DNA from: a virus | Taxonomy: Duplodnaviria; Caudoviricetes | DNA: 64,000 nt | Virus record (IMG/VR): IMGVR_UViG_3300042013_000103 | Direction: 5' to 3' (one strand) | Shown here: in pieces, positions 25,225-38,042 of the stretch | Position numbering within the stretch: the first letter of the stretch is position 1 | How the letters are laid out: every line of letters begins with the position of its first letter | Notes under the pieces: generated by a model | What the model was told of the DNA's origin: nothing | Seen by the model: the letters and a program-made list of their open reading frames with translations, nothing else | The model's database searches: none | Translations under genes and position numbers: made by a program

Positions 25225-25476
25225 TCAGTTGTTCACTTCAGCCCAGAGCTGAGTAGACACCAGTGGACTTTCGGCGGCGCCGATCACCACGACCACGGTG
25301 CCTTCTTCGGCAGCCGGTTCATGCACGATGTAGCCATTGCTTTCCAGGGTCTCGACGGCGACTTTGGCGCCAGCCTTGAGGTAAGCCAGGTTGGCTTCGT
25401 AGCCTTCGGCATCCAGAGCACCAGCTTTCTCAACAACAGCGGTTTCCAGCAGCGACACGAGTTTGGCTTGAGACAT
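25225..25476 (-). CDS. small acidic protein, tandem paralogue 1
   Basis: LETAV...YLKAGAKVAVETLE..VIGA..PL.S.QLWA.VN. Confidence 0.8.
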   Translation of the reverse strand: MSQAKLVSLLETAVVEKAGALDAEGYEANLAYLKAGAKVAVETLESNGYIVHEPAAEEGTVVVVIGAAESPLVSTQLWAEVNN

Positions 25477-25556: not shown

Positions 25557-25805
25557 TCAGCTATTGACCACGGCCCACAGTTGCTCGGACAGCAGTGGTA
25601 CACCAGCGCCGATGACCGCAACCAGGTCGTCTTTCCCGGCTTCGTCGATGTGCACAACCTGCACGCCGTAGTCGCCTGCTTCCAGGGTTTCCACGGTCAG
25701 CTTGACGCCGGCTTTCACGCCATCGAGGTAAGTTGCTTCAGCTGGGGTTTCCAGAGCGGCAACAGCGGTTTCGAGTTTGGTAACGAGGCTAGCTTGAGCA
25801 GACAT
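25557..25805 (-). CDS. small acidic protein, tandem paralogue 2
   Basis: Same motifs as 25225..25476. Confidence 0.8.
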   Translation of the reverse strand: MSAQASLVTKLETAVAALETPAEATYLDGVKAGVKLTVETLEAGDYGVQVVHIDEAGKDDLVAVIGAGVPLLSEQLWAVVNS

Positions 25806-25874: not shown

Positions 25875-26300
25875 TTAGGCGAGCTCAGCTTCGACCAAGA
25901 TGTCCCATTGGGCTTCAGTGCCCGTGAACCCTTGGCGTTGGGCCAACTGGAACACCGACGGTTCATCTTGGACTTCGAGGGCCTGGGGTTCATCGAACCC
26001 GTAACGCACCAACAACGTCAGTTCTTCGGCGCACAGCGGATTGGAGATCACATAGCGCCCTGTGTTGAAATCACACACGATCGAACAGAGCAACTGTCCA
26101 TTACCATTGTAAAGGGACGTGATGGCCTGGTTGTTGGCGTGCACCTGTTGGATCTTGACGCCCTCGAGGAACTCGCCTTCGTTTAAATAAGCTGCTGTCA
26201 CTTCAAAACTGGTCAGCCAGTCGGTATTCGGCAAAGTGGCGATGACTTCACGACACATGCCACGGGCAGGGCTTCGGACCAAACGAGATGTACACTCCAT
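25875..26300 (-). CDS. hypothetical protein with C-terminal FQLA..GFTGTEAQW motif
   Basis: 141 aa; TGATG overlap with the upstream stop. Confidence 0.65.
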   Translation of the reverse strand: MECTSRLVRSPARGMCREVIATLPNTDWLTSFEVTAAYLNEGEFLEGVKIQQVHANNQAITSLYNGNGQLLCSIVCDFNTGRYVISNPLCAEELTLLVRYGFDEPQALEVQDEPSVFQLAQRQGFTGTEAQWDILVEAELA

Positions 26301-26722
26301 CAGTTGTTGACCTCGTCGAACAACACCTGGGCGTGTTTCACGACACGGCTGTATTCCGCAGTGTCGTGCTTGTAGTTGACCTGGCCCATGATCGAACCCT
26401 TGCCTTCTTCGGTACGGTTGAACAGGAACGACGCGGTGGACGAACCGCCGATGCCGTAGGACAGGCCCACTTCAGCGATTTCCGGTTTCTTGGCCCAGAG
26501 TTTGGCCACTTGTTCGGAACCCACCAGCGCCACGGCGGTGAACAGGTTGCTTTCCTGACGCTGCATCTTTTTATGCTGCTCAGGGGTGATGCCGACTTCG
26601 TCGAGCACGACGGTTTTGTAGAGGTCATCCAACGCTGGGAAAGCCCCGGCGTCGTCGATCAGCAGTTTCTCGCGCAGGGCGAACTGATCAGCGAATTGAC
26701 TGGATTTGAGTTCTTTGGACAT
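26300..26722 (-). CDS. hypothetical protein
   Basis: 140 aa; strong codon bias; AAGGA SD. Confidence 0.8.
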   Translation of the reverse strand: MSKELKSSQFADQFALREKLLIDDAGAFPALDDLYKTVVLDEVGITPEQHKKMQRQESNLFTAVALVGSEQVAKLWAKKPEIAEVGLSYGIGGSSTASFLFNRTEEGKGSIMGQVNYKHDTAEYSRVVKHAQVLFDEVNN

Positions 26723-26782: not shown

Positions 26783-27424
26783 TTATTTAGGGGTGTCGTT
26801 ACCCGCCGGCAGGATGGAACGGCAGTTGTAAACACCCCATAAGTCTTGCGTGTCACATTGCGGTACAATCCCCACGGTAAAAGAGGGGGCGATGTCAGAG
26901 CGCGACTTCAGGCGCGTAATGAGCCCGGTGTCGTCACTCAGCACCACGCCGGTGTCGCAGTTGATGGTAAAGATGAGTAGCCACGAATTCGGGTTTATCA
27001 CACCGCGGTAATCCTCGAAGTCACCGAGGTCTACCACTCTACGGTCATGATGAACCCCCACGACTTGACGCCGCTTATACATGCCATCGAAGTAGACAAC
27101 AATGTCCGATTCGAACGATGGGTAGTTGAGGGTGATCCACTCATTACCTTGTTTGAACTCGATGTGAGTCATCACGTAGCGGAACGTGGGATCGCCGCAT
27201 TCGTGCAGGTCGTTGGCCATTACCCAACCGCTGTCGGTTTCAGCCAAGACAGTTTCGCCTAGGACATACTGAGCGAAGATGTCCTCAGGTTGCACCGGAT
27301 CGCCCTCCAACGAATTGAAGAAGGTCAGGTTCAAACTGGGAACGTCGAACATCTGCCACTGGCCGGTTCGACCGTTGAGCATTTGGGAATGGATACGACT
27401 CTGTGTAGCCAAGGGTTCCGTCAT
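26783..27424 (-). CDS. hypothetical protein
   Basis: Start revised to ATG 27424 (AGGA SD). Confidence 0.65.
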   Translation of the reverse strand: MTEPLATQSRIHSQMLNGRTGQWQMFDVPSLNLTFFNSLEGDPVQPEDIFAQYVLGETVLAETDSGWVMANDLHECGDPTFRYVMTHIEFKQGNEWITLNYPSFESDIVVYFDGMYKRRQVVGVHHDRRVVDLGDFEDYRGVINPNSWLLIFTINCDTGVVLSDDTGLITRLKSRSDIAPSFTVGIVPQCDTQDLWGVYNCRSILPAGNDTPK

Positions 27425-27444
27425 AACAGTTCCTGTATCGGGGG

Positions 27445-27708
27445 TTACAAGTAACCATGTGCAGCCAACCACCGTCGCATGGTCACTTCGAACTCGTCGT
27501 CGACCAGTTGCTTGACTTTCGTCGCGATGGTGCCGTTGGTGATCCCGGCCTGCAACTCTTCTGAGGTGAGGCCGGAGCAGACCCGAGCGTAACAGTCGAT
27601 GGCTTGGGTGGACATGTGCAGGGTGAGTTCTTTCAGATCGTCAGCATTGGTCATACCACGCAGGATACGTTCGAGGGGATCAGCCTCGTTCAGATAATCG
27701 TCGTTCAT
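27445..27708 (-). CDS. hypothetical protein
   Basis: 87 aa; first ORF after the early promoter; GAGGT SD. Confidence 0.7.
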   Translation of the reverse strand: MNDDYLNEADPLERILRGMTNADDLKELTLHMSTQAIDCYARVCSGLTSEELQAGITNGTIATKVKQLVDDEFEVTMRRWLAAHGYL

Positions 27709-27814: not shown

Positions 27815-27840
27815 GTTATTTTGGAATATAACGACATAAC

Positions 27841-27860
27841 GCTTCTCCCGGAGGAGAAGC
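27841..27860 (-). terminator. intrinsic terminator
   Basis: GCTTCTCC-TCCG-GGAGAAGC followed by GTTATGTCG. Confidence 0.8.
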
Positions 27861-27870
27861 TATTATGGTG

Positions 27871-28548
27871 TCAATTCCCTTGATGGGTACCTTCCGTTCC
27901 TTCTGCTTGACGGCGCGCGGTTCGCGCTTTCGACAGGGCCAGGATTGCCCGTACATGAAACAGCATCTTCTCGTTTTCGGCACAGGCAAAACGCCCTTCC
28001 TGAAAACCTTCCAACACAATCTCTTGCACTTTGGCCAGGTCTTCCAACGTGACCCCGTTCAACCCTACCTCCGGCACCGCCCCGTTCTGCAGGACAATCA
28101 CCAATTGCGTGGCGATACTGTCCGCATCCTGTTCTTCCCGGGCCGGGTTGTCGGTGGCGTCAAACCCCGAGATCACAATGCGCTTCGGCGAACCCGAGGC
28201 GGCATCGGGGTACATAGCGTCGAACGTCTTGGCGCGGGTGGAGTCATTGCCTTGGACGGCGTCAAACTCTTCAAACCCGTAGATGCCCTGACGGCTCACC
28301 CACTGGCCTTTAACCCAAACCCAGGTGACGTTACGGACTTGGAACGCTTCGTCCTCCTTGGGGTGCTTGGGGAGGTCTGCGGTGCTATCCAGGGCCCGGA
28401 TCGTTGCCACGGTCTCCAAAGCCACCGTAATGTCCGCGGCCGTGACTTCTTCGTGGGTGCCGGCTTCATCCTTCACCACCCCGTCGTCACCGGCGGTAGT
28501 CTCGGGCAAATCTTTGGGGGTGATCACAGCTAACGGTGTCTCGGACAT
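27871..28548 (-). CDS. tad1: Tad1-family anti-defence signal sponge with an N-terminal extension
   Basis: C-terminal LQNG..E.G.NGV...DL.......L.GFQ.G.F..AEN....HV..........R...G.EGT matches the recalled Tad1 pattern. Confidence 0.75.
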   Translation of the reverse strand: MSETPLAVITPKDLPETTAGDDGVVKDEAGTHEEVTAADITVALETVATIRALDSTADLPKHPKEDEAFQVRNVTWVWVKGQWVSRQGIYGFEEFDAVQGNDSTRAKTFDAMYPDAASGSPKRIVISGFDATDNPAREEQDADSIATQLVIVLQNGAVPEVGLNGVTLEDLAKVQEIVLEGFQEGRFACAENEKMLFHVRAILALSKARTARRQAEGTEGTHQGN

Positions 28549-28552
28549 AGTC

Positions 28553-28999
28553 TTAATCCACGTGGTTCATGGCCAGCTGAACCAGCAGGCGTTGAATAGG
28601 GGCCGGCAAATCAGCCGCTTCGGTTTTCACGACACTGAGGATCGCCGCGTTGCGCTTGAGCAGGTTCTTTTCCACCTTGCTGGTTTCCGCCGCTTCCAAG
28701 ATGGCGAACATCCCGGACCACGTGGTGTGGTGGTGGAACATGAGACTCTCCACCAAACCAATGTAGAGCGGGTCCTTTAACAGAGGGAACACCGTTTCGT
28801 GCACGCCGTGGTAATGGATCACGTTGGCCAACATCGCAGGGGACATGTCATGACCCACCTGCAAACGCATGTCGTTAGAAAGTAACCCGGAGACCAGTGA
28901 CGGGGCACCGTTCTGTAGGTACTCGTTAAACATCGCTTGTCGTCCATCAATGTTCAACAAGCGATAACCCAGCCGCTGTAACCAGTTCAACTTGAGCAT
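28553..28999 (-). CDS. hypothetical protein
   Basis: Start revised to ATG 28999 (GAGG SD). Confidence 0.7.
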   Translation of the reverse strand: MLKLNWLQRLGYRLLNIDGRQAMFNEYLQNGAPSLVSGLLSNDMRLQVGHDMSPAMLANVIHYHGVHETVFPLLKDPLYIGLVESLMFHHHTTWSGMFAILEAAETSKVEKNLLKRNAAILSVVKTEAADLPAPIQRLLVQLAMNHVD

Positions 29000-29057
29000 C
29001 TGCCTTTCCTCGTGAATTAAGTGGGTACTAATACATACAGTACCCACTCGAGTAGAT

Positions 29058-31052
29058 TTAGAAACGGTCGGTGGTTTGGGCGAACGCCGACAGGGTACGG
29101 GCGATGTCCCCGTCCAAGCCCCACGACATCAGGTTGGTGGGCGAACGCCAGCTGCGGAAGTTCTGCACGGCTCGGGTCAGGTTGAGGTTCAACCGTTTCC
29201 CAGCGTAATAGAAGTCCGCCCAGGTTTGTGACGTCAAGGTGCCCACGTAATCCTGGAACAACGACTGTTCATCCCACACGGCCCCTTCCGACAACGCGAT
29301 GCCCGTGGCCAAACCTGCTTCAGCGTTGCCCAAGGCCCCACCTATTTGTTCCGACGCCAACGCAGTGCCTGCCCGAGCCGCCGTGCCCAACCAGCTGTTC
29401 GAGGCAAAGCCGCCTTTCAACGGCATGTACATCAACTTTGACAGGTCTTTGAAGCTGATGCTGACTTCCAGGCCCAGCATGTCGTGGTCCGCGTTCCAAC
29501 CGATGTTACCGGTACCACGGCGTACGGTGATGTTGTCCACAATCCCCAGCTGCCGTTGTACGCGCCCTTGGTGGTAGATCTGTACAATGAACGGGGCGGT
29601 GTACGCCGACCGTCCAGCGGCCTTTGGGAGGCCCAAAGGCAGGATCATCGCCAAGGGGATGTACAGGTTCATGAACCGGGAGATCTTGTTCCCGTACGGC
29701 GACACCAAGGGAATGGTGTAACTCGCCGTCGGCAGTTGCGCTGTGGCCGATTCCCAGTATTCCGGCACGTCCACAAACGCCGAACCGGTCAGTGTGGCCA
29801 AGCCCGACATGTTCACCGAGTCGGCAGCACCCCCGATCACGCCTTTCACCATCGCAATGGCTTGCCCCACGCCTTCCGTGACGTTACCGCCCATGAAGTT
29901 GAACGACGCAGCGCGCCCTTCCTTGACCTTAGTGTCCAGTTGTGAAGCCACCCCCACTTCGGTGGTGGAGTTGCTGAACGATTCCGACACTTCCCCCGTG
30001 TAGTCCACCCGGAAAGTCACGAACTGCGAACCGTCCCGTTGTGCACCGATAATGAAATCGTACGACTGGGACAAGTCCGACCAGCTCGAGAAAGACTCCG
30101 TGTCGATGATCCCGCTGTCGCCGGACTTGTTGGTTTTGGCCAAATAGTCCAGGGCATACTGCCTCGCTGAAACCCCCGGGTTCGGGTCTTCTTGACTGGT
30201 CTTCTGCAGTGCCAACACCCCGGCCTTCAGTTCCGCGATCGTGGTGGCTTTCTCTTGGAGGGATCGCATGGCTTTTTGAGCCGCGTCTGATTTACGTTGA
30301 GTACGACCAGCAAGAGCCATAACATCGACACCACCTTCCTCGCGAAAGAAACCGGGGAAGATGCGGTGGAGTTCTTTGACGTCTTCATGGGTCACCTGCT
30401 GTCCTGGGTCTTCCATTGGTGCGGGCGTGTTGGCGTCCCCCATGATGCGGGGAGTGATGCCCAGACCAATCGCGAATTCATTGGCCAGTAGGTTCACGGC
30501 AGACCAGTACGCGTGCATGTTCGGTTTGAAGTAAAACCACTTCGAGGGGTTGGTTTTCTGCAGGAACGACATCACCCGGCTCGCCCCGGTCAGGCCGATG
30601 ATAAACGGTTGCAAGGGCAACGTAACAATGAAGCCCCCCACGTTCCCCAGGTTGTACCAGAGGCTCGACACTTGCCCGCTGTTGGCAAAGGCTGCCGCGG
30701 AACGGTCGTAGAAGTTCACGAAGAACCCCGACCAGCTGGAGAACCGAGGGTCCCCCACGGAAATGTGAATCTGTTGCCGTGTGTCATCGTGCGCTTCGGA
30801 ATAGTAACGTCCCATGCCCATGATGGCGTCTTTGTCTTCCCGACCGCGCCCGGGTAACCGGATGTCACAGTAACGGGTGTACTGCGGCAGGTTGTTGATG
30901 GTGTAGTTGCCGCCTAAGGTCGTGTTGGTGAACTTAAAGGCCGCGGACGTAGCGTTGCGTCGTCCGGTCTCGGAACCGAAAGACCCTTTCTCAAAGCTGG
31001 TGGGCACGAGGAAAGCTTGGCGCATGTTGATGGGCGTTGGAATCGTCGCCAT
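29058..31052 (-). CDS. virion structural (baseplate/tail) protein, phiKZ gp182-like
   Basis: Position directly after the tape measure; GMGRYYSE and GI...[11 protein letters not shown] pattern; start 31052 with AGGAG SD. Confidence 0.7.
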
Positions 31053-31084
31053 AGCAATGCTCCTGTCTGGAAAATGCGAAATAA

Positions 31085-31110
31085 GAGACCTCCCCCGAAG
31101 GGAAGGCCTC
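31085..31110 (-). terminator. intrinsic terminator (UUCG loop)
   Basis: Imperfect GC stem after the tape measure stop. Confidence 0.6.
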
Positions 31111-31118
31111 ATTCAAGG

Positions 31119-34100
31119 TCAGCTCAAAGATACAGGTGGTGCGGTCTGCTGTGCAGATCTGCCTGTCGGAGCCGGACTAGTAGAGGACATACTATTGTCC
31201 CGCTGCTGGGTCAGGGTCTCTAACAAGACAACCATCCGTTGTTGGGCTGCTAATTGCAGGGCGCCGTTGTCCAGCATTTGCTGCTGGATGTTGATTTGCT
31301 CACCCACGTCCTTGGTCCGTAGTTGGTCTCTCGCTTTGGCCGCTTGGTACGCCGGGCTCAACCCCGCTGGGGCTGCAGGAGCAGCGTCCATTGGAGCAGG
31401 AGCGTCCGGGGCTTTCAGCATCCCAACCGGTCCGGTCGGGGCTTGGGCCTGTGGTGCTCCGCCACTGGTGTTGGTCGGGGTGGAACCCGATGGACCCGTG
31501 GTCGATGCGGCGGCTTTGGAGACGTTGTAGGCTTTGGCTTCGTCCAAGGCTTTCTGCCCAGCGTCCGTTTCGGGAGCTTTGGCTTCGGCCACCACGTCCT
31601 TCATCTGGCCTTCCATTGCCTTCGCCTTGGCCGCTTGTGCTTCCTCTGGCGTGGTCTCTTTGCCTTCCTGGGCTTTGTTGACCGAACTGTTGGCGCCCGT
31701 CCGGTGAGGTTTGATCTTCGCATCGAACAACGCGTAGACTTCCCCGATGGTGCGGGCTTGGCCGGCTCTGAAGTAGAAGATCGACTTGTTGGCCTGGGCT
31801 TGCGCCGGGAACAACTGCGCAGCAACGGCCCCTTGATCGGCCATCAAGAATCGACGTGCCGTTTCAGGACCAAAGAAGTGGGCACAGTACATGTCCACGT
31901 CCGTCGGTTCACGGCCCAACTTACCCGCCAGGAAGCGGTAGTTGTCGAGCATGAACAAACCACCCATCAGGGCGTTGATCCGAGGGTCCAGTCGCTGTTG
32001 GCGGTTGGTGTCAGGAGGCAGGCCATACTTCGCACCGTACTTCTTGATGTAACCGTCCCACGTCCCGTTAATGAACTGGAACCAACCTGTGGCCGAAGAC
32101 GTCCCAGCTTTCGCCAGGTAGTCAAAGTTAGATTCCAACGAGACGAAGATGTTCAACAGCTCCAACGGCAACCCGATCATGTCCGCCACCGCTTTCAGCG
32201 TGGGCTGAGCCGCAGCTTTGGATCTGTTCGAAGCCGGCATTGGAATCTGTTCCCAGGTGCCGCCGTTCCCTTTGGTCAACCCACCGAACGAAGTCCCCGA
32301 CACAGCAATCTTATCGGTGACCCCGGTGTTGTACTTCAGGGTGTCGTAGACGTCTTTCCCCGAGTCGGCTACCTTGCCCCCGAACTCCGTGACCGATTCC
32401 CACGCGTTGGAGACAGTGTCCTTCACCGCCGAGAACAACCGGGCCGAGAAGCCTTTGCCCGATTGCGCGTCAACTTTCCCGTCGACCTGTTGGCCAGCAG
32501 TCATGGTGGGGGTTTCGATGATGTCCCCGGAAGCAACTTTCTTCAGGTACTCCAGTTCCGTCGCCGCCAAGGTCTGCAGCGCGTCCAGATCCCCCGTCAC
32601 CTCGAAAGGCGGTTGGACTTTCCAGATGCTGCCTTCCGGCCCGTCGGATTTGGCCCCGATGATCGCGTTACCGACCGTGACTTTGTCCGCCGCCTTTAGG
32701 GAAGCTTCCACCCGCGCCAAGTCGGTGTTACCCGTGATGACCTTGATCGACCCGATGTACGCTCGGAACACCGGCCCAAAGCGGTTCACGATCCAATGCA
32801 CAAAGCGATCGCGTTTCGCCCCATCCGACAACGACAACCCAAACATCGGTGCCGCGTCTTCCACCAAACTCCCCAGGTCCGCCGTGTAGTCCGCGGTCCC
32901 GTCTTGTTGGATTTTCAACCCCAACATGAACCGGGCTTCGAACGACAGAATCGAACTGACCGACGCCACGTCCGCCGATTCCAACCCGTACGCCCGGAAG
33001 CGCAACGATTGCAAACCGGTCAGCTTAGTGGTCGGAGCCCGCACCGTGGCCATCGCCGGAGCAATGGACGCCGTCATCTTGGCCCGCATGTCTTTGGTCA
33101 ACCCTGCAGTAACCCCAACCGCCACGGGGGACGGTTTAACCTCAGGGCCACCCATGATGTCGTCCGCGGTGAGTTCTTTAGCAGCAGACGGTTTCTTGGC
33201 CGGAAGAGCAGCAGCCGCGGCTTTGGCACCAGCGCCCGCCATGGCGGTGGTGGTCACCACGCCCGAGGCCGCCCCGGAGGGGTCTTTGGCTTTGAGTTTG
33301 TACTGCGCTTTCAACGCGGCGAGCATCTCCTTGATCTTAGGGGTCAGGTCTTCCAGGTCGTCTTCATCACCGAACGGGTTCATCCGGTACTGGTACGGGG
33401 AATTGCTACCGTCCAAGGACGACACCGAATCCAGCAGGCTGTATTTCAACGCGTCATCGATTTTCCCATCGATGTCATTCAACAACACCGACGATTGACC
33501 GATGTTCGTCAACCCTTGCAGCCAAGCGGTGAACACGGGTTTGAAGCGAAGGTCCAACCACCGCGCCATGCGCAGCACCTGATCGTCCGCATCCATGTCC
33601 ACCCCGAGGATGTCCGCAACCTTCGGCAACGACTCCTTGTTGATCTTGATCGCAAAACCATTGGCCCGGTCCACCGTGCCTTCGAGGAACGCTTCCAGCT
33701 CCAGGACTTTCTTCTGATCGCCCATAGCGTCGGCGCCGTACTGCAACAAACGCAGTTGACGCAATTCCCCACGGGTTTGCAGGTACTGTGCACCTTTATA
33801 AGCACCGTACCCTACTGCCGCCACACCGGCCGCCACCAGCACGACCGGCGACGTCAGCGCCGCCAACAACCCAGACGCCACCGAAGCCAGCGCCGTACCG
33901 GCCATGGCCATCCCAGACATCCCGACCGTACCTGCTACCGCGGCGGTGCCTTTGGCGACCGACCAAGCCGCTCCCGCACCACGGGCCATCAGGCCAGCTT
34001 TCGGAACCTTCGGCATGACCGGTTTGCGCAGCTTCCCTTTACGGCGACGACCGCCGGTGATTCCGTCCTTGATATCAGCCAAGTCCGCAGCGTCAGACAA

Positions 34101-37100
34101 CCCAAAACCGTCGTCGTCGTCTTCCTCGGCTTTATCCTTACCGCCGAGTTTGGCCATGAGTTTGCCCAAACCCCCTTTCATCAGGTTCCCAAACCCCCCG
34201 TCCGCTTTATCCGCTTTGGTTTGTTTGGTCCCGTCAGGGTTCTTCTCGGCCTCTGCTGCCCGGGACATCTTCTCCTGCCAGCTGCCTTTGCGAGGACCAG
34301 GTGGGTTCAAGCGGTTGACCAAGGTTTCGAGGATCCCGCCCAGCAGTTGATCGGTAGGGGTTTCCAACTTGCCGTAGTCAATGAGCTTACCGCCCAATCC
34401 GCCCAGCACACCCCCCATCTTCTTGCCTGCTGCGCCTGCTTTACCGCCCAACCAACCGTAGTACTTCTTGGTCATCTTCCAGTAAGCTTTGACCGGGGCT
34501 TTCAGCATCTTCTTCAGCATGCTGGATTTCTTGGCCAGGGCATGGGGCTTGCCGTCGGAGTTCAACAGCAACGGCATCTGCGTGGCGGTGAGTACGACGT
34601 TGCCTTTTAGATCGAACAACGGTCCTTTCAGGTTGTCGAAGTCGGTCAGAACTTCACCGTCCGAGTTGGCGTACTGGCCTCGACGGAGTTCATACGCCGA
34701 GACTGCTGGGTCCACTGTGCCGGGCAAGTAACCGTCTTGGTTACCGACCAAACGGTCCGTGATGAGTTTCACCCCACCCCACGCCAAGGCGCCGGCATTG
34801 GCCCCACCTTTCAGCAACATCTTGGTCAGCTTCTGCGACTGGGTTCCTGGACCAAAGAGGTAATCCTTGGCCGCTTTCGCTGCTCCTTTGACCGCGGTGA
34901 GTTTCCCCGTGGCACTGTCCACCAGTCCGTCTTTCAAGTCCTGGGCCGTGGCCACAATGCGCCCGGAACGGTCCACGATGGTCCCGGTGATGTCGTCCAG
35001 TTTCTGGATGACTACGCCCGTGGCTTGGTCCAAGTACTCGCCGGCTTTGATGTCCCGTCCTAACAACAACGGTTCCCGTCGCCCTGGAATGACCCAATCC
35101 GTCCGGGAGAATTCCCCTTCGATGGTCTGACCGAACATCTGTGCAGTAGGGTCCCAATTGTCCATGGCCTTCTGAGCCCGTTCCATGAACTCCCCTTCCA
35201 CGGCCTGTTGGGTACGCACAACCAATTGACCAGCGGAGTTGGCCAACCCACGAGTGGCTTCCATTTCCGACAACACTAAGTTGCCTTCACGGTTGATCAC
35301 TGCCCCGGTGATGTCCTTGATCGAGGTGATGATCTTTTTGGTTTTGACGTCCATCAAGTTGCCGTTGAGGATATCTGTCGCCCGGATCACCAGCTGGTTC
35401 GTGTCAGGCAAAGACAAGTCCATGACGAACTCGGACACTTTGGCTTTGGCTCCCTGCAACACGTCCGCTGCCTTGGAGAACGCTTCAGAGGCCATGGCAC
35501 CGCCAGCGGCCACCTGAGCTTTCTGGTGGGCTTCCTGAGCATAACCTTTAACCTGGTCGCCGAAATCCCCTGCCATCGCTTTAGCGTGCGCTGCAGCTTC
35601 TCCTACGGTGGCCCGCGCCTGTTCGTAGGCATCCATGGCGGGACCTTTGACCTGGGCCTTGATTTTACGGTAAGCTTCGGCAATGGCACCCCCGGCTTTA
35701 GACCCGTGAGCCCGTAACTGATCGCCCCAACCCCCAGCCTGCGCCCCAGCGCCTTGTGCGTGCGCCGCTGACGCCGCTCGGAACTCGGCTGAGCCGTCCC
35801 AAGCTTTCTGCCCGGCCACCTTGGCCTTGTTCTTCAGTTTGTCCGCCAGCTGTCCGAAGCGCCCGCCCATGCCCTGAGGCATTGGACCGACAAACCCCGC
35901 ACCGGTTGGCGTGGACTCATTGGTGGCAAACGGGTTGTCCGAAGAAATGTCCGCCCGCATGAGTTCCCACAGGCGTTCGTAGTTAATCCGGTCGTTGCCA
36001 TTCTCGGTGACGACGATGCCCAGAATCCGCAAGGACTCCGTGCCCCCCGATTCCACCAACCGCGAGATTTCGTTAAACGGATCGGCCGCCACGTCGCGAA
36101 CGTTCAAGAACGCTTTGGAGAACTCACTCAGCTTCTTGTTGTTGCCGCCGGTGTTTTCCATCTTACCGTCGGCCCCCGAAGTGAACTGGGCCTTGAAGAA
36201 CCCTGCGAGCTCTTCCTGCACGCCCCGGTCTTGGGTGTCCTTGTACCCACTGGCTTGGCTGTACTTCGCTGGGTCGAACCGCTTATTGGTGGCCGAATCC
36301 CGCAGCAACCGAGCCCCCAGTACCTTCCGCGCCTCTGCTGATAGCTTGCCTTCTTTGTCGTAGGTGTTCAGCGTGTCGTCGATGGTGCTGGACACGTTAC
36401 GGGCGGATTGACGCCCGATCACCGAAGCCGACAGGTTCTTGAGTGCAGCCCCTTCTTCCGAAAACTTCCCGTTGGTGATGTCAAACTTCACCAAGGCGGC
36501 ATCGCTGCGTCCGGTCCGGATGTTCGTCAGTTCCCGCAGTTGACGTGCCAACAGCCCAGGAATAATGTCCACCAAAGTGCGCTGGCCCAGTTGGTTCCAG
36601 GTCGCTTGTTTCTCAATGGTTTGATACTTGCTGGACTTGAGCTGATCGTCTAAGCGGAATTGGGGCAAAAAGGACGACATCGCCTTCTGCAACAACCCCT
36701 TCGCGCCGGTTTGGTTCTGTGAATTATTCATCCACTCTTGGAGCAAGGCAGGGGCGTTGTCGATGGCGTACGAAGCACGGTGTTGACCACCGCCTCGAGC
36801 ATCTAAGAACTTATCCACACCCGGACGGAGCTTGCGCCCTATCCGTGGCGCCACCGAGTTCTTGAGGAACCCCATGACGCCGTCACCGGCTAACGACCCG
36901 GCCATTTCGTAACGGTTGTCCCAGGCTTGTTTCTTCATGCCCGAGCTGCTTTGCATGGCCATGGACAATGCGCTGATAGCGCTGCCGGCTTTCTCCGAGA
37001 GGTTGCCCCGGATCTGATCGCCGTACGTCCCTAAGAACGCAGGCAGGCCTTTGGCAATCGCCCCCGAGATGCGCGACGCGGCACCCTGAGCCATTTCCAT

Positions 37101-37985
37101 GCTGACCAGTTCTTTCATGGACGACTTCATGTGCTCCGGCGTACCGGTGTTGCGCACCAAAGCTTTATAACCCATCTGGTGCAACTGCACCTGTGCTTCC
37201 GACACCCGCAGCAAATCCCGGGTGGCTTGGTAGGTACGGAATTGCAGCTCCAGTTGTTTGCGCTGGATGTTGTAACCGATCTGTTCGTTGTAGTTGGCCA
37301 TCCGGGTGATGCCGTCGACGGCCATCGACATGCCACGGGACATGAAGTCATAACGCTTACCCGAGACCCGATCGCGGATACCACGTTCGGCTTGGGCCAG
37401 GGTAAAGCGACGGTCCGCGTTGCGTTCCGATTCCTGGTGGGTGCGTTGGGTGACCAACGTGTTCTGGTCCATCGCCCCACGGATTTCGTCTTCGTCAGCC
37501 TGTTGCTGAGCCCGTTGACGGATCTTGAGTTGGTCGCGGCTGGATTCTTGTTGGTACTTATACTGGTCAAGTTTACTTATTGTAGCTTGATCCAGACGGT
37601 CGTACAAAGACTGGGGAATTTTGCTTTGAAGAGCTGGCATAGCCAACTGCGCTTCTTTAGCAATGGTGGACAAATCCCCCGGATGCTTCCGTTCAATCTC
37701 ATCCACCACGTCCGTCAACATCTGCTTGCTGGCGTCCATCACCCCAAAGGTCCGGTTAATCCCGTCCGGGGTCATGCTGCGCAAGAACGACGTCAGTACC
37801 GTCTTCCCTTTATTCTTATCAACCAACGACCCTTTCATGCCAACAGCAAACTGGCGCAACGGGCCTTTCTTTTTCTCAGTGGGATCAGGGCCAAAGATAT
37901 CGTCGATATTCCCCAAGTCCAACACGGCCATCTGTTGCGTGATGCCCGAGTTTTTCTGTAATAACTTAGTCTTTTTGGTCGCCAT
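31119..37985 (-). CDS. tail tape measure protein with lytic transglycosylase domain, phiKZ gp181-like
   Basis: About 2288 aa, Ala/Gly-rich helical; SLT motif SLESNF...SSATGWFQFINGTW near the C-terminus; divergent from RNAP beta'. Confidence 0.92.
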   Translation of the reverse strand: MATKKTKLLQKNSGITQQMAVLDLGNIDDIFGPDPTEKKKGPLRQFAVGMKGSLVDKNKGKTVLTSFLRSMTPDGINRTFGVMDASKQMLTDVVDEIERKHPGDLSTIAKEAQLAMPALQSKIPQSLYDRLDQATISKLDQYKYQQESSRDQLKIRQRAQQQADEDEIRGAMDQNTLVTQRTHQESERNADRRFTLAQAERGIRDRVSGKRYDFMSRGMSMAVDGITRMANYNEQIGYNIQRKQLELQFRTYQATRDLLRVSEAQVQLHQMGYKALVRNTGTPEHMKSSMKELVSMEMAQGAASRISGAIAKGLPAFLGTYGDQIRGNLSEKAGSAISALSMAMQSSSGMKKQAWDNRYEMAGSLAGDGVMGFLKNSVAPRIGRKLRPGVDKFLDARGGGQHRASYAIDNAPALLQEWMNNSQNQTGAKGLLQKAMSSFLPQFRLDDQLKSSKYQTIEKQATWNQLGQRTLVDIIPGLLARQLRELTNIRTGRSDAALVKFDITNGKFSEEGAALKNLSASVIGRQSARNVSSTIDDTLNTYDKEGKLSAEARKVLGARLLRDSATNKRFDPAKYSQASGYKDTQDRGVQEELAGFFKAQFTSGADGKMENTGGNNKKLSEFSKAFLNVRDVAADPFNEISRLVESGGTESLRILGIVVTENGNDRINYERLWELMRADISSDNPFATNESTPTGAGFVGPMPQGMGGRFGQLADKLKNKAKVAGQKAWDGSAEFRAASAAHAQGAGAQAGGWGDQLRAHGSKAGGAIAEAYRKIKAQVKGPAMDAYEQARATVGEAAAHAKAMAGDFGDQVKGYAQEAHQKAQVAAGGAMASEAFSKAADVLQGAKAKVSEFVMDLSLPDTNQLVIRATDILNGNLMDVKTKKIITSIKDITGAVINREGNLVLSEMEATRGLANSAGQLVVRTQQAVEGEFMERAQKAMDNWDPTAQMFGQTIEGEFSRTDWVIPGRREPLLLGRDIKAGEYLDQATGVVIQKLDDITGTIVDRSGRIVATAQDLKDGLVDSATGKLTAVKGAAKAAKDYLFGPGTQSQKLTKMLLKGGANAGALAWGGVKLITDRLVGNQDGYLPGTVDPAVSAYELRRGQYANSDGEVLTDFDNLKGPLFDLKGNVVLTATQMPLLLNSDGKPHALAKKSSMLKKMLKAPVKAYWKMTKKYYGWLGGKAGAAGKKMGGVLGGLGGKLIDYGKLETPTDQLLGGILETLVNRLNPPGPRKGSWQEKMSRAAEAEKNPDGTKQTKADKADGGFGNLMKGGLGKLMAKLGGKDKAEEDDDDGFGLSDAADLADIKDGITGGRRRKGKLRKPVMPKVPKAGLMARGAGAAWSVAKGTAAVAGTVGMSGMAMAGTALASVASGLLAALTSPVVLVAAGVAAVGYGAYKGAQYLQTRGELRQLRLLQYGADAMGDQKKVLELEAFLEGTVDRANGFAIKINKESLPKVADILGVDMDADDQVLRMARWLDLRFKPVFTAWLQGLTNIGQSSVLLNDIDGKIDDALKYSLLDSVSSLDGSNSPYQYRMNPFGDEDDLEDLTPKIKEMLAALKAQYKLKAKDPSGAASGVVTTTAMAGAGAKAAAAALPAKKPSAAKELTADDIMGGPEVKPSPVAVGVTAGLTKDMRAKMTASIAPAMATVRAPTTKLTGLQSLRFRAYGLESADVASVSSILSFEARFMLGLKIQQDGTADYTADLGSLVEDAAPMFGLSLSDGAKRDRFVHWIVNRFGPVFRAYIGSIKVITGNTDLARVEASLKAADKVTVGNAIIGAKSDGPEGSIWKVQPPFEVTGDLDALQTLAATELEYLKKVASGDIIETPTMTAGQQVDGKVDAQSGKGFSARLFSAVKDTVSNAWESVTEFGGKVADSGKDVYDTLKYNTGVTDKIAVSGTSFGGLTKGNGGTWEQIPMPASNRSKAAAQPTLKAVADMIGLPLELLNIFVSLESNFDYLAKAGTSSATGWFQFINGTWDGYIKKYGAKYGLPPDTNRQQRLDPRINALMGGLFMLDNYRFLAGKLGREPTDVDMYCAHFFGPETARRFLMADQGAVAAQLFPAQAQANKSIFYFRAGQARTIGEVYALFDAKIKPHRTGANSSVNKAQEGKETTPEEAQAAKAKAMEGQMKDVVAEAKAPETDAGQKALDEAKAYNVSKAAASTTGPSGSTPTNTSGGAPQAQAPTGPVGMLKAPDAPAPMDAAPAAPAGLSPAYQAAKARDQLRTKDVGEQINIQQQMLDNGALQLAAQQRMVVLLETLTQQRDNSMSSTSPAPTGRSAQQTAPPVSLS

Positions 37986-38042
37986 GGGAAACTCCATCGA
38001 CTGTTAAATAATCATATCGTAACCCTCTAAGAGGTACCTACA

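What the first reader, a model, noticed from the sequence alone, without database searches (positions are those of the whole stretch)
27871..28548. Tad1-like immune-signal sponge with a head-protein propeptide, encoded in a late structural operon
Seen: the C-terminal ~110 aa match the recalled Tad1 pattern (FQ.G...GV...DLL....RL..FQ.GPF..REN..A..HVEEA...R...R...V.GT) with substitutions (RL to VL, REN to AEN, EEA to RAI). The N-terminal 45 aa are acidic and end in ALE, followed by a small W-rich module. The gene is co-oriented downstream of the gp182-like structural gene and upstream of a terminator. Known: Tad1 sequesters Thoeris gcADPR and CBASS cyclic oligonucleotides, and the phiKZ protease cleaves S/A/G-X-E propeptides of head proteins. 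Inference: a virion-packaged, injected sponge acting before early transcription, perhaps with altered ligand specificity.
Basis: partly seen in the sequence, partly recalled or inferred. Interest (0 to 1): 0.8.

Follow-up and report, generated by a model that had tools for sequence, protein, structure and literature searches.

The report
Head-packaged Tad1 sponge, phiKZ gp184 ortholog
This gene in an undescribed phiKZ-like giant phage is the counterpart of phiKZ gp184, a protein already reported to ride in the phage head, be cut by the head protease and be injected as a Tad1 sponge for bacterial immune signals, so the reading is right but not new.

Summary
Window 27871-28548 (minus strand) is a 225-aa ORF whose last ~130 residues are a true Tad1 domain. 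This is shown by phmmer to CmTad1 (E 2.6e-6), by a family profile that hits every solved Tad1 (E ~1e-29), and by fold searches (Foldseek top 20 all Tad1; VIA Z 10.2-11.5).

The gene is the positional ortholog (40% identity) of phiKZ gp184, in the order gp181-gp182-x-gp184-gp186-gp188. Published work already describes gp184 as a head protein cut by the gp175 protease. A short beta piece of it is seen in the capsid cryo-EM (8Y6V chain I), it is injected into translation-blocked cells, and it is annotated as Tad1. So the "packaged, injected sponge" idea is supported by homology but is known biology.

- The W-rich module (residues 46-93) matches the capsid-bound piece of gp184.
- It is flanked by two protease-type sites, ALE45 and GFE93. 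E93 is invariant in 13 orthologs, so the free sponge probably starts at residue 94, not 46.
- The gcADPR/dinucleotide pocket residues are kept (F182, N192, R209, R213). The cyclic-trinucleotide site (A190, F197) is not.
- The same module sits in a different head protein in phiPA3.

The scan had noted this same stretch once more, in an overlapping window of the same genome; nothing was found on other DNA.

The parts
27871..28548 (-). Whole CDS (225 aa plus TGA stop); ortholog of phiKZ gp184, phiPA3 gp217 and 201phi2-1 gp280
   Evidence: ORF list and translation. phmmer to 8y6v_I gp184, E 2.4e-41. tblastn gives 40% identity over 92% of the query to phiKZ-like phages. Synteny. The same 225-aa gene is called on two Logan contigs.
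28414..28548 (-). Residues 1-45: acidic, disordered N-terminal segment ending in A43-L44-E45 (S/A/G-X-E type site)
   Evidence: Net charge -9. pLDDT 45-51. A site of the same type lies at the equivalent place in orthologs: AIE in phiKZ; ALE, STE, AVE and SFE in others.
28270..28413 (-). Residues 46-93: W-rich beta module, inferred capsid anchor, ending in G91-F92-E93
   Evidence: pLDDT ~87-92, four strands. It matches the 34 modelled residues of phiKZ gp184 in the capsid map 8y6v_I (TM 0.77, rmsd 1.6 A, 35% identity). E93 is invariant in 13 orthologs, and the site fits S/A/G-X-E in 12 of 13. The module also occurs in phiPA3 gp096 at 62% identity.
27874..28269 (-). Residues 94-225: short linker plus Tad1 domain (beta-sheet and two long helices), the predicted free sponge
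   Evidence: pLDDT 90-98 from residue 101. Foldseek and VIA hit Tad1 only at the top. Profile E ~1e-29 to all solved Tad1. Pocket residues F182, N192, R209 and R213 are kept. Homodimer model scores 0.89 against a best control of 0.02.
27835..27867 (-). Hairpin 4 nt after the stop codon (core stem 8 GC-rich pairs, tetraloop), terminator-like
   Evidence: RNA fold dG -27.5 kcal/mol, z -5.8, 0 of 200 shuffles as stable. Not listed by the consensus terminator scan.
28553..29047 (-). ORF in the position of phiKZ gp183 (164 aa, or 148 aa from a later start); 4-nt gap to the Tad1 gene, so probably co-transcribed
   Evidence: ORF list and gene call. No Pfam, PHROG or NCBIfam match. No similarity to phiKZ gp183 or phiPA3 gp215/216.
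29058..31112 (-). gp182-like virion structural protein gene, upstream in the same orientation
   Evidence: phrog_3181, E 3e-227. 68% identity to phiPA3 gp214 and its relatives, annotated as similar to phiKZ gp182.
31119..37997 (-). gp181-like giant tail protein gene (2292 aa), head of the co-oriented block
   Evidence: ORF list. Same position as phiKZ gp181 and phiPA3 gp213.

Best explanation
The gene encodes a three-part precursor of a head-packaged Tad1 sponge, the ortholog of phiKZ gp184.
- Part 1 (residues 1-45) is an acidic, disordered leader ending at ALE45.
- Part 2 (46-93) is a small Trp-rich beta module that docks on the inner face of the capsid near the vertices, as the matching piece of gp184 does in the phiKZ capsid.
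- Part 3 (94-225) is a Tad1 domain that pairs into dimers. It keeps the pocket that binds Thoeris gcADPR and CBASS cyclic dinucleotides.

Proposed course of events: the gene is made with the structural genes gp181-gp182. The module carries the protein into the prohead. The phiKZ-type head protease, which cuts after S/A/G-X-E, cuts after E45 and after E93. The anchor stays on the shell, and the freed ~132-aa sponge leaves with the DNA at the next infection. It can then soak up immune signals before any phage gene is expressed.

Shown here: ORF, domain identity, fold, synteny, conserved sites and pocket residues.
Inferred from phiKZ: packaging, cleavage and injection.
Inferred from conserved residues: ligand binding.
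For: Tad1 identity:
- E 2.6e-6 to CmTad1.
- family profile E 1e-28 to 1e-29 to all solved Tad1, covering residues 5-124 of the 125-residue CbTad1.
- Foldseek top 20 all Tad1, probability 1.00, target TM ~0.7.
- VIA Z 10.2-11.5 with 110-125 aligned residues; the next unrelated tier is Z 7 or less.

Orthology to gp184:
- E 2.4e-41; 40% identity over 92% of the query.
- same gene order, gp181-gp182-x-gp184...gp186...dTMP kinase.

Anchor module:
- it matches the 34 residues of gp184 modelled in the phiKZ capsid (TM 0.77, rmsd 1.6 A).
- PMC11297242 places that piece between gp86 and hexamer 1, and says gp184 is cut by gp175.

Cleavage sites:
- E93 is invariant in 13 orthologs inside an otherwise variable linker, with S/A/G at P3 in 12 of 13. 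This holds in orthologs with and without the module.
- A second site of the same type lies just before the module in all module-bearing orthologs, except one that has T at P3.

Injection and Tad1 role in phiKZ:
- PMC10449902: gp184 validated as injected into gentamicin-treated cells.
- 10.1101/2025.11.23.690004: states that the C-termini freed by the head protease are injected, naming gp93 and gp184/Tad1.
- PMC11724313 and PMC13282480 also name gp184 as Tad1.

Pocket and dimer:
- CbTad1 F82, N92, R109 and R113 map to F182, N192, R209 and R213. These positions are near-invariant in 146 homologs.
- homodimer model of residues 94-225 scores 0.89, best of 3 controls 0.02. That mark was reached by 20 of 30 proteins solved as pairs and 1 of 23 solved as single chains. 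The runs share at least 88% of contacts and partner pLDDT is at least 85. Tad1 dimers are solved, so this shows likeness rather than proof.
Against: - No direct evidence exists for this phage: no virion proteome, no expression data and no binding data.
- I could not read Thomas et al. 2012 or Li et al. 2024 (Nature). The exact verified cleavage site(s) of phiKZ gp184, and whether gp184 itself was assayed for ligand binding, are therefore known to me only through citing papers.
- The N-terminal W-x-x-S-L-E motif found in phiKZ gp184 and most orthologs is absent here.
- The near-invariant Phe of the FQxG motif is Leu here. It is L or M in 10 of 12 jumbo-phage orthologs and F in 132 of 134 others; the effect is unknown.
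- The trinucleotide and hexamer-interface residues of CmTad1/CbTad1 are not kept (A190, F197 and neighbours), so the oligomeric state and ligand range may differ.
- Pfam, NCBIfam and PADLOC gave no hit for the single sequence.
Confidence: 0.8

Rival explanations
1. It is mainly a minor capsid (vertex-complex) protein. The Tad1-like domain stays tethered inside the head as a structural or DNA-contacting part and has no sponge role in infection.
For: The only part of phiKZ gp184 seen in the capsid map is structural and fills a gap between gp86 and a capsomer (PMC11297242). The trinucleotide site and the hexamer-interface residues of characterised Tad1 are not kept.
Against: All four gcADPR/dinucleotide pocket residues and the C-terminal EGT lid motif are kept under strong conservation. 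An invariant protease-type site separates the module from the Tad1 domain. In phiKZ the gene is dispensable by TnSeq and the protein is injected (10.1101/2025.11.23.690004; PMC10449902). phiPA3-type orthologs keep the Tad1 domain without the capsid module.
Confidence: 0.08
2. It is a cytoplasmic Tad1 made during infection, like the Bacillus phage Tad1, and is not packaged. The N-terminal 93 residues serve another purpose, for example regulation or localisation.
For: Canonical Tad1 proteins are free ~125-aa proteins expressed after infection (one search gives the background). No virion data exist for this phage.
Against: The N-terminal module is homologous to a piece seen in the phiKZ capsid and to a module in a phiPA3 virion structural protein of the inner-body gene cluster. 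The gene sits behind structural genes with a 4-nt gap to the preceding ORF. Protease-type sites flank the module.
Confidence: 0.07
3. It is packaged and injected as proposed, but the sponge has drifted to a different signal (for example another ADPR-derived or cyclic nucleotide signal) and no longer binds gcADPR.
For: Clade-specific change of the near-invariant Phe153 to Leu/Met. Loops around the pocket differ between Tad1 homologs and set their dinucleotide range. Sponge families are known to shift specificity (10.1101/2025.08.24.671296).
Against: The residues whose mutation abolishes gcADPR and 2',3'-cGAMP binding in CbTad1 are all present.
Confidence: 0.05

Closest known systems
phiKZ gp184 (PHIKZ184, 'Tad1'), PDB 8Y6V chain I
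   Same: Same genome position after gp181-gp182. Same architecture: acidic N-terminus, W-rich beta module, Tad1 domain. 40% identity over residues 17-225. S/A/G-X-E type sites at both ends of the module. Same pocket residues (Tyr in place of F182).
   Different: The window protein lacks the N-terminal W-x-x-S-L-E motif of gp184. It has Ala rather than Glu at the CbTad1 R90 position. It has a 7-residue longer linker and a 3-residue insert before the first helix region. It comes from a phage with no megablast match in the GenBank phage set, whose gp182 is closer to phiPA3-like phages (68% identity).
Clostridial prophage Tad1 (CbTad1 7UAV/7UAW/8SMD; CmTad1 8KBB-8KBD) and SBSphiJ7 Tad1
   Same: Same fold (Z 10-11.5). 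Same dimer-type interface in the model. Conserved F/N/R/R pocket for gcADPR and 2',3'-cGAMP. Conserved C-terminal EGT lid.
   Different: Those are free ~125-aa proteins with no capsid module or protease sites. They form hexamers and bind cA3/cAAG through R90/T97 (CbTad1), which are A190/F197 here. Sequence identity is only 22-25%.
phiPA3 gp217 / 201phi2-1 gp280 (Tad1 orthologs without the module) and phiPA3 gp096 (module without Tad1)
   Same: gp217 is at the same locus, has a 53%-identical Tad1 domain, and has a conserved S-N-E site at the column of E93. gp096 carries the W-rich module at 62% identity, flanked by SNE and GFE.
   Different: In phiPA3 the two parts lie in separate genes about 120 kb apart. 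gp096 sits in the inner-body gene cluster. Here and in phiKZ the two parts are fused.

Membership tests
Tad1 (Thoeris anti-defence 1) sponge family | Significant sequence or profile similarity to characterised Tad1 over the whole domain | tested here: met
   Single sequence: E 2.6e-6 to CmTad1. Profile of 146 homologs: E 1e-28 to 1e-29 to all solved Tad1, covering residues 5-124 of 125.
Tad1 (Thoeris anti-defence 1) sponge family | Fold: N-terminal antiparallel beta-sheet followed by two long C-terminal helices | tested here: met
   AF2 model at pLDDT 90-98 over residues 101-225. Foldseek top 20 all Tad1. VIA Z 10.2-11.5, rmsd 2.7-3.9 A, 110-125 aligned.
Tad1 (Thoeris anti-defence 1) sponge family | gcADPR / cyclic-dinucleotide pocket residues (CbTad1 F82, N92, R109, R113) | tested here: met
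   They map to F182, N192, R209 and R213. The positions are near-invariant across 146 homologs.
Tad1 (Thoeris anti-defence 1) sponge family | Homodimer that forms the ligand pocket at its interface | tested here: met
   Model of two copies of residues 94-225: score 0.89, best of 3 controls 0.02. The mark was reached by 20 of 30 solved pairs and 1 of 23 single chains. Runs agree in at least 88% of contacts; pLDDT at least 85. Solved Tad1 dimers exist, so this shows likeness only.
Tad1 (Thoeris anti-defence 1) sponge family | Hexamer (trimer of dimers) with a cyclic-trinucleotide site (CbTad1 R90/T97; CmTad1 R88/T95) | tested here: not met
   The equivalent residues are A190 and F197, and the neighbouring interface residues also differ. 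This feature is not family-wide: A, E and D are the commonest residues at the R90 position in the nearest 134 homologs. Its absence therefore limits the predicted ligand range, not membership. The hexamer itself was not modelled.
Tad1 (Thoeris anti-defence 1) sponge family | Binding of gcADPR or CBASS signals and rescue of phage from Thoeris or CBASS | not testable with these tools
   Needs purified protein and phage-host assays.
phiKZ gp184-type head-packaged, processed Tad1 | Conserved locus downstream of gp181-gp182 in a phiKZ-like (Chimalliviridae) genome | tested here: met
   Gene order matches phiKZ and phiPA3.
phiKZ gp184-type head-packaged, processed Tad1 | Capsid-binding beta module as seen in the phiKZ capsid map | tested here: met
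   Residues ~50-88 fold confidently. They superpose on the 34 modelled residues of 8y6v_I (TM 0.77, rmsd 1.6 A, 35% identity). Sequence identity to the phiKZ module is 45%.
phiKZ gp184-type head-packaged, processed Tad1 | S/A/G-X-E head-protease sites that bound the processed parts | tested here: met
   ALE45 and GFE93. E93 is invariant in 13 orthologs. That the sites are actually cut was not testable.
phiKZ gp184-type head-packaged, processed Tad1 | Presence in virions and injection into the host | not testable with these tools
   Shown only for phiKZ gp184 (PMC11297242; PMC10449902).

The most novel reading that the evidence does not exclude
The 48-residue W-rich module is a portable capsid 'address tag' bounded by head-protease sites, which jumbo phages move between cargo proteins. 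It is fused to Tad1 in phiKZ and in this phage. It sits inside an inner-body paralog (gp096) in phiPA3, whose Tad1 ortholog lacks it. It forms the N-terminus of an 881-aa metagenomic protein. If so, packaging of the sponge is a modular, exchangeable trait, and the module could be used to load chosen proteins into jumbo-phage heads. A second, smaller point is that the free sponge starts at residue 94 after a cut at the invariant E93, and that this clade binds gcADPR and dinucleotides but not cyclic trinucleotides.
Probability: 0.4. Interest if true: 0.5.

Novelty: new member of a known kind. Interest (0 to 1): 0.28.

Why it matters
A sponge delivered ready-made with the DNA can blunt Thoeris and CBASS signalling before the phage has made any protein, which is when a giant phage is most exposed. 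That principle is already established for phiKZ gp184.

This window adds three things:
- A divergent ortholog (40% identity) from an undescribed phage.
- Comparative evidence for where the protease frees the sponge.
- Evidence that the capsid-docking module is exchangeable between head proteins.

These are useful for annotating jumbo-phage genomes and for designing tests of head-cargo loading. They do not open a new question.

Tried and rejected
- Pfam, PADLOC and NCBIfam scans of the whole protein and of residues 130-225 or 94-225 gave nothing meaningful. The only NCBIfam hits were chance-level, far below cut-off. PHROGs gave only families of unknown function.
- The precomputed PF24729 tag on four homologs could not be reproduced with the local Pfam copy. 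I did not rely on it.
- Megablast of 8 kb around the gene found no phage record, so the phage could not be named.
- No whole genome is held for the window. I could not check whether this phage also has a gp096-like gene carrying a second copy of the module; within the 64-kb window there is none.
- Thomas et al. 2012 (PMC3323674) and Li et al. 2024 (PMC12159963) are not held. The 2023 preprint of Li et al. does not mention phiKZ. The verified gp184 cleavage site, and any direct assay of gp184, therefore remain second-hand.
- The consensus terminator scan did not list the hairpin after the gene; folding showed it.
- The gp183-position ORF has no similarity to phiKZ gp183 or phiPA3 gp215/216.
- I considered the A136-R137-E138 site inside the Tad1 domain as a cleavage site. 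I rejected it because it lies in the folded domain and is not conserved (AAM in phiKZ, AAD in phiPA3).

Full report
THE SEQUENCE. Window 27871..28548 on the minus strand is an uninterrupted 225-codon ORF with a single possible ATG start. Its start lies 4 nt after the stop of a 164-aa ORF (28553..29047). That ORF follows a 684-aa ORF (29058..31112) and a 2292-aa ORF (31119..37997), all on the minus strand. Gene callers on two public contigs that carry the identical protein give the same 225-aa product. Four nucleotides after the TGA stop is a hairpin with an 8-bp GC-rich core. It folds at -27.5 kcal/mol with z = -5.8 against shuffles. The simple terminator scan missed it because the T-run is weak.

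WHAT THE PROTEIN IS. Curated libraries were silent, and PHROGs gave only unknown-function families. Against PDB sequences, the best hit is phiKZ gp184 (8y6v chain I, E 2.4e-41, residues 17-225). Next is CmTad1 (8kbb, E 2.6e-6, residues 151-222), with weaker hits to CbTad1. An exhaustive search found 1316 homologs at E up to 1e-3, most of them 120-140-aa proteins aligned to residues ~100-225. A profile of 146 of them matches every solved Tad1 at E 1e-28 to 1e-29 over the whole Tad1 chain.

THE FOLD. The AlphaFold2 model has mean pLDDT 80 and divides into four parts:
- Residues 1-49: disordered.
- Residues 50-88: a confident four-stranded module.
- Residues 90-100: a weak linker.
- Residues 101-225: a domain at pLDDT 90-98.

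Foldseek's first 20 PDB hits are all Tad1 (E 3e-7 to 1.5e-5, probability 1.00). VIA-align gives Z 10.2-11.5 for eight Tad1 entries, with 110-125 residues aligned. The next tier, Z 7 or less, is generic helical hairpins. Tad1 membership is therefore secure.

CONTEXT AND ORTHOLOGY. The 684-aa neighbour is 68% identical to phiPA3 gp214 and its relatives, which are annotated as similar to phiKZ gp182. The order gp181-gp182-(variable small ORF)-gp184...gp186...thymidylate kinase is the same in phiKZ, phiPA3 and the window. The phage itself has no megablast match in the GenBank phage set. It is an undescribed phiKZ-like jumbo phage, and a 308,580-bp contig carries the gene.

WHAT IS ALREADY KNOWN ABOUT GP184.
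[quoted passage not shown] It describes gp184 as mainly beta-strands filling the gap between gp86 and a capsomer. It states that gp184 is cleaved by the head protease gp175 and that most of the chain is not resolved.
- PMC10449902 validated gp184 as injected into gentamicin-treated cells.
- PMC11724313 reports Tad1 as the only anti-defence gene found in phiKZ by AntiDefenseFinder.
- 10.1101/2025.11.23.690004 calls gp184 Tad1 and finds it non-essential. It says the N-termini of such proteins are wedged in the capsid, while the C-termini freed by the head protease are injected.
- The review PMC13282480 says Tad1 is injected by phiKZ and blocks CBASS and Thoeris, citing Li et al. 2024.

I could not read Li et al. 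2024 or Thomas et al. 2012, and the 2023 preprint of Li et al. has no phiKZ data.

ANATOMY AND LIKELY PROCESSING. Residues 1-45 have net charge -9 and end in A-L-E. Residues 46-93 contain three Trp. In the model they superpose on the only 34 residues of gp184 built in the phiKZ capsid map (TM 0.77, rmsd 1.6 A, 35% identity).

I aligned 13 jumbo-phage orthologs. The Glu at position 93 is invariant, although it lies in a poorly conserved linker. The tripeptide ending there fits the phiKZ protease motif S/A/G-X-E in 12 of 13 sequences (GFE, GHE, GIE, SNE, SVE, SAE, ATE). This holds whether or not the ortholog has the W-rich module.

A second site of the same type precedes the module in the module-bearing orthologs: ALE, AIE, STE, AVE and SFE, with one exception that has TLE.

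I infer two cuts, after E45 and after E93. They would leave a ~48-residue anchor on the shell and free a 132-residue Tad1, the size of canonical Tad1. This is inference from conservation plus the phiKZ statements; no proteomic data exist for this phage.

LIGAND PREDICTION. Li et al. (preprint) show two sites:
- CbTad1 F82, N92, R109 and R113 form the pocket for gcADPR and 2',3'-cGAMP at the dimer interface.
- R90 and T97 (CmTad1 R88 and T95) bind cyclic trinucleotides at the trimer-of-dimers interface.

Using the ungapped HMMER alignments, the pocket residues map to F182, N192, R209 and R213, all kept. R90 and T97 map to A190 and F197. In the 146-sequence alignment the pocket positions are near-invariant. 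The R90 position is mostly A, E or D, even outside the jumbo-phage clade.

The 'REN to AEN' change is therefore ordinary within the family. It predicts no canonical cA3/cAAG site, rather than a new specificity.

A two-copy model of residues 94-225 scores 0.89 against a best control of 0.02. The mark was reached by 20 of 30 solved pairs and 1 of 23 single chains. The runs share at least 88% of contacts, and pLDDT is at least 85. Because Tad1 dimers are solved, this shows likeness only. Whether the protein forms hexamers is open, since the CmTad1 hexamer contacts are not conserved.

One clade-specific oddity is Leu153 in place of the Phe of the FQxG motif. That position is F in 132 of 134 other homologs.

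MODULE SHUFFLING. The W-rich module alone finds 61 Pseudomonas jumbo-phage records.
- In phiKZ-like phages it lies in gp184.
- In phiPA3 and PA1C-like phages it lies in gp096, a 321-aa virion structural protein in the inner-body gene cluster. There it is 62% identical to the window's module and flanked by SNE and GFE.
- The phiPA3 Tad1 ortholog gp217 lacks the module.
- An 881-aa metagenomic protein carries the module at its N-terminus.

The module thus behaves as a movable capsid-docking unit bounded by protease sites. This is the most novel reading left open by the data, and I did not find it discussed in the papers read.

VERDICT. The element is a new, divergent member of a known kind (head-packaged, injected Tad1 of phiKZ-like phages). 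Interest is modest.

Noticed in passing
L003:2961-3926 (phiPA3 gp096); also proteins P0031 and P0112: The W-rich module of the Tad1 precursor occurs at 57-62% identity in other head proteins: phiPA3 gp096 in the inner-body gene cluster, and an 881-aa metagenomic protein. In each it is flanked by SNE and G[FH]E protease-type sites. The phiPA3 Tad1 ortholog gp217 lacks the module.
   Followed up: partly
window 28553-29047 (-): The ORF between the gp182-like gene and the Tad1 gene (164 aa, or 148 aa from a later start) has no family match and no similarity to phiKZ gp183 or phiPA3 gp215/216. The slot between two conserved genes holds unrelated genes in different phages.
   Followed up: partly
window 25225-25476 (-) and 25557-25805 (-): Two adjacent small ORFs (83 and 82 aa) are paralogs, 46% identical (E 3e-15), with a shared C-terminal LWAxVN ending. 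No function assigned.
   Followed up: partly
window 28090-28092 (-), residue L153 of the protein: The Phe of the FQxG motif is F in 132 of 134 non-jumbo Tad1 homologs. It is Leu here, and Leu or Met in 10 of 12 jumbo-phage orthologs. This is a clade-specific change next to the ligand-binding region, of unknown effect.
   Followed up: no
window 26783-27472 (-) and 27445-27708 (-): The 229-aa and 87-aa ORFs just downstream of the hairpin have no convincing Pfam or PHROG match. The 140-aa ORF at 26300-26722 is the gp186 / phiPA3 gp222 homolog (39% identity).
   Followed up: partly
L004 and L005 (Logan contigs of SRR18728772 and SRR35210382): The identical protein, with the same neighbouring genes, is present in two independent public sequencing runs. 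The phage has therefore been sampled more than once, although it has no match in the GenBank phage set.
   Followed up: no
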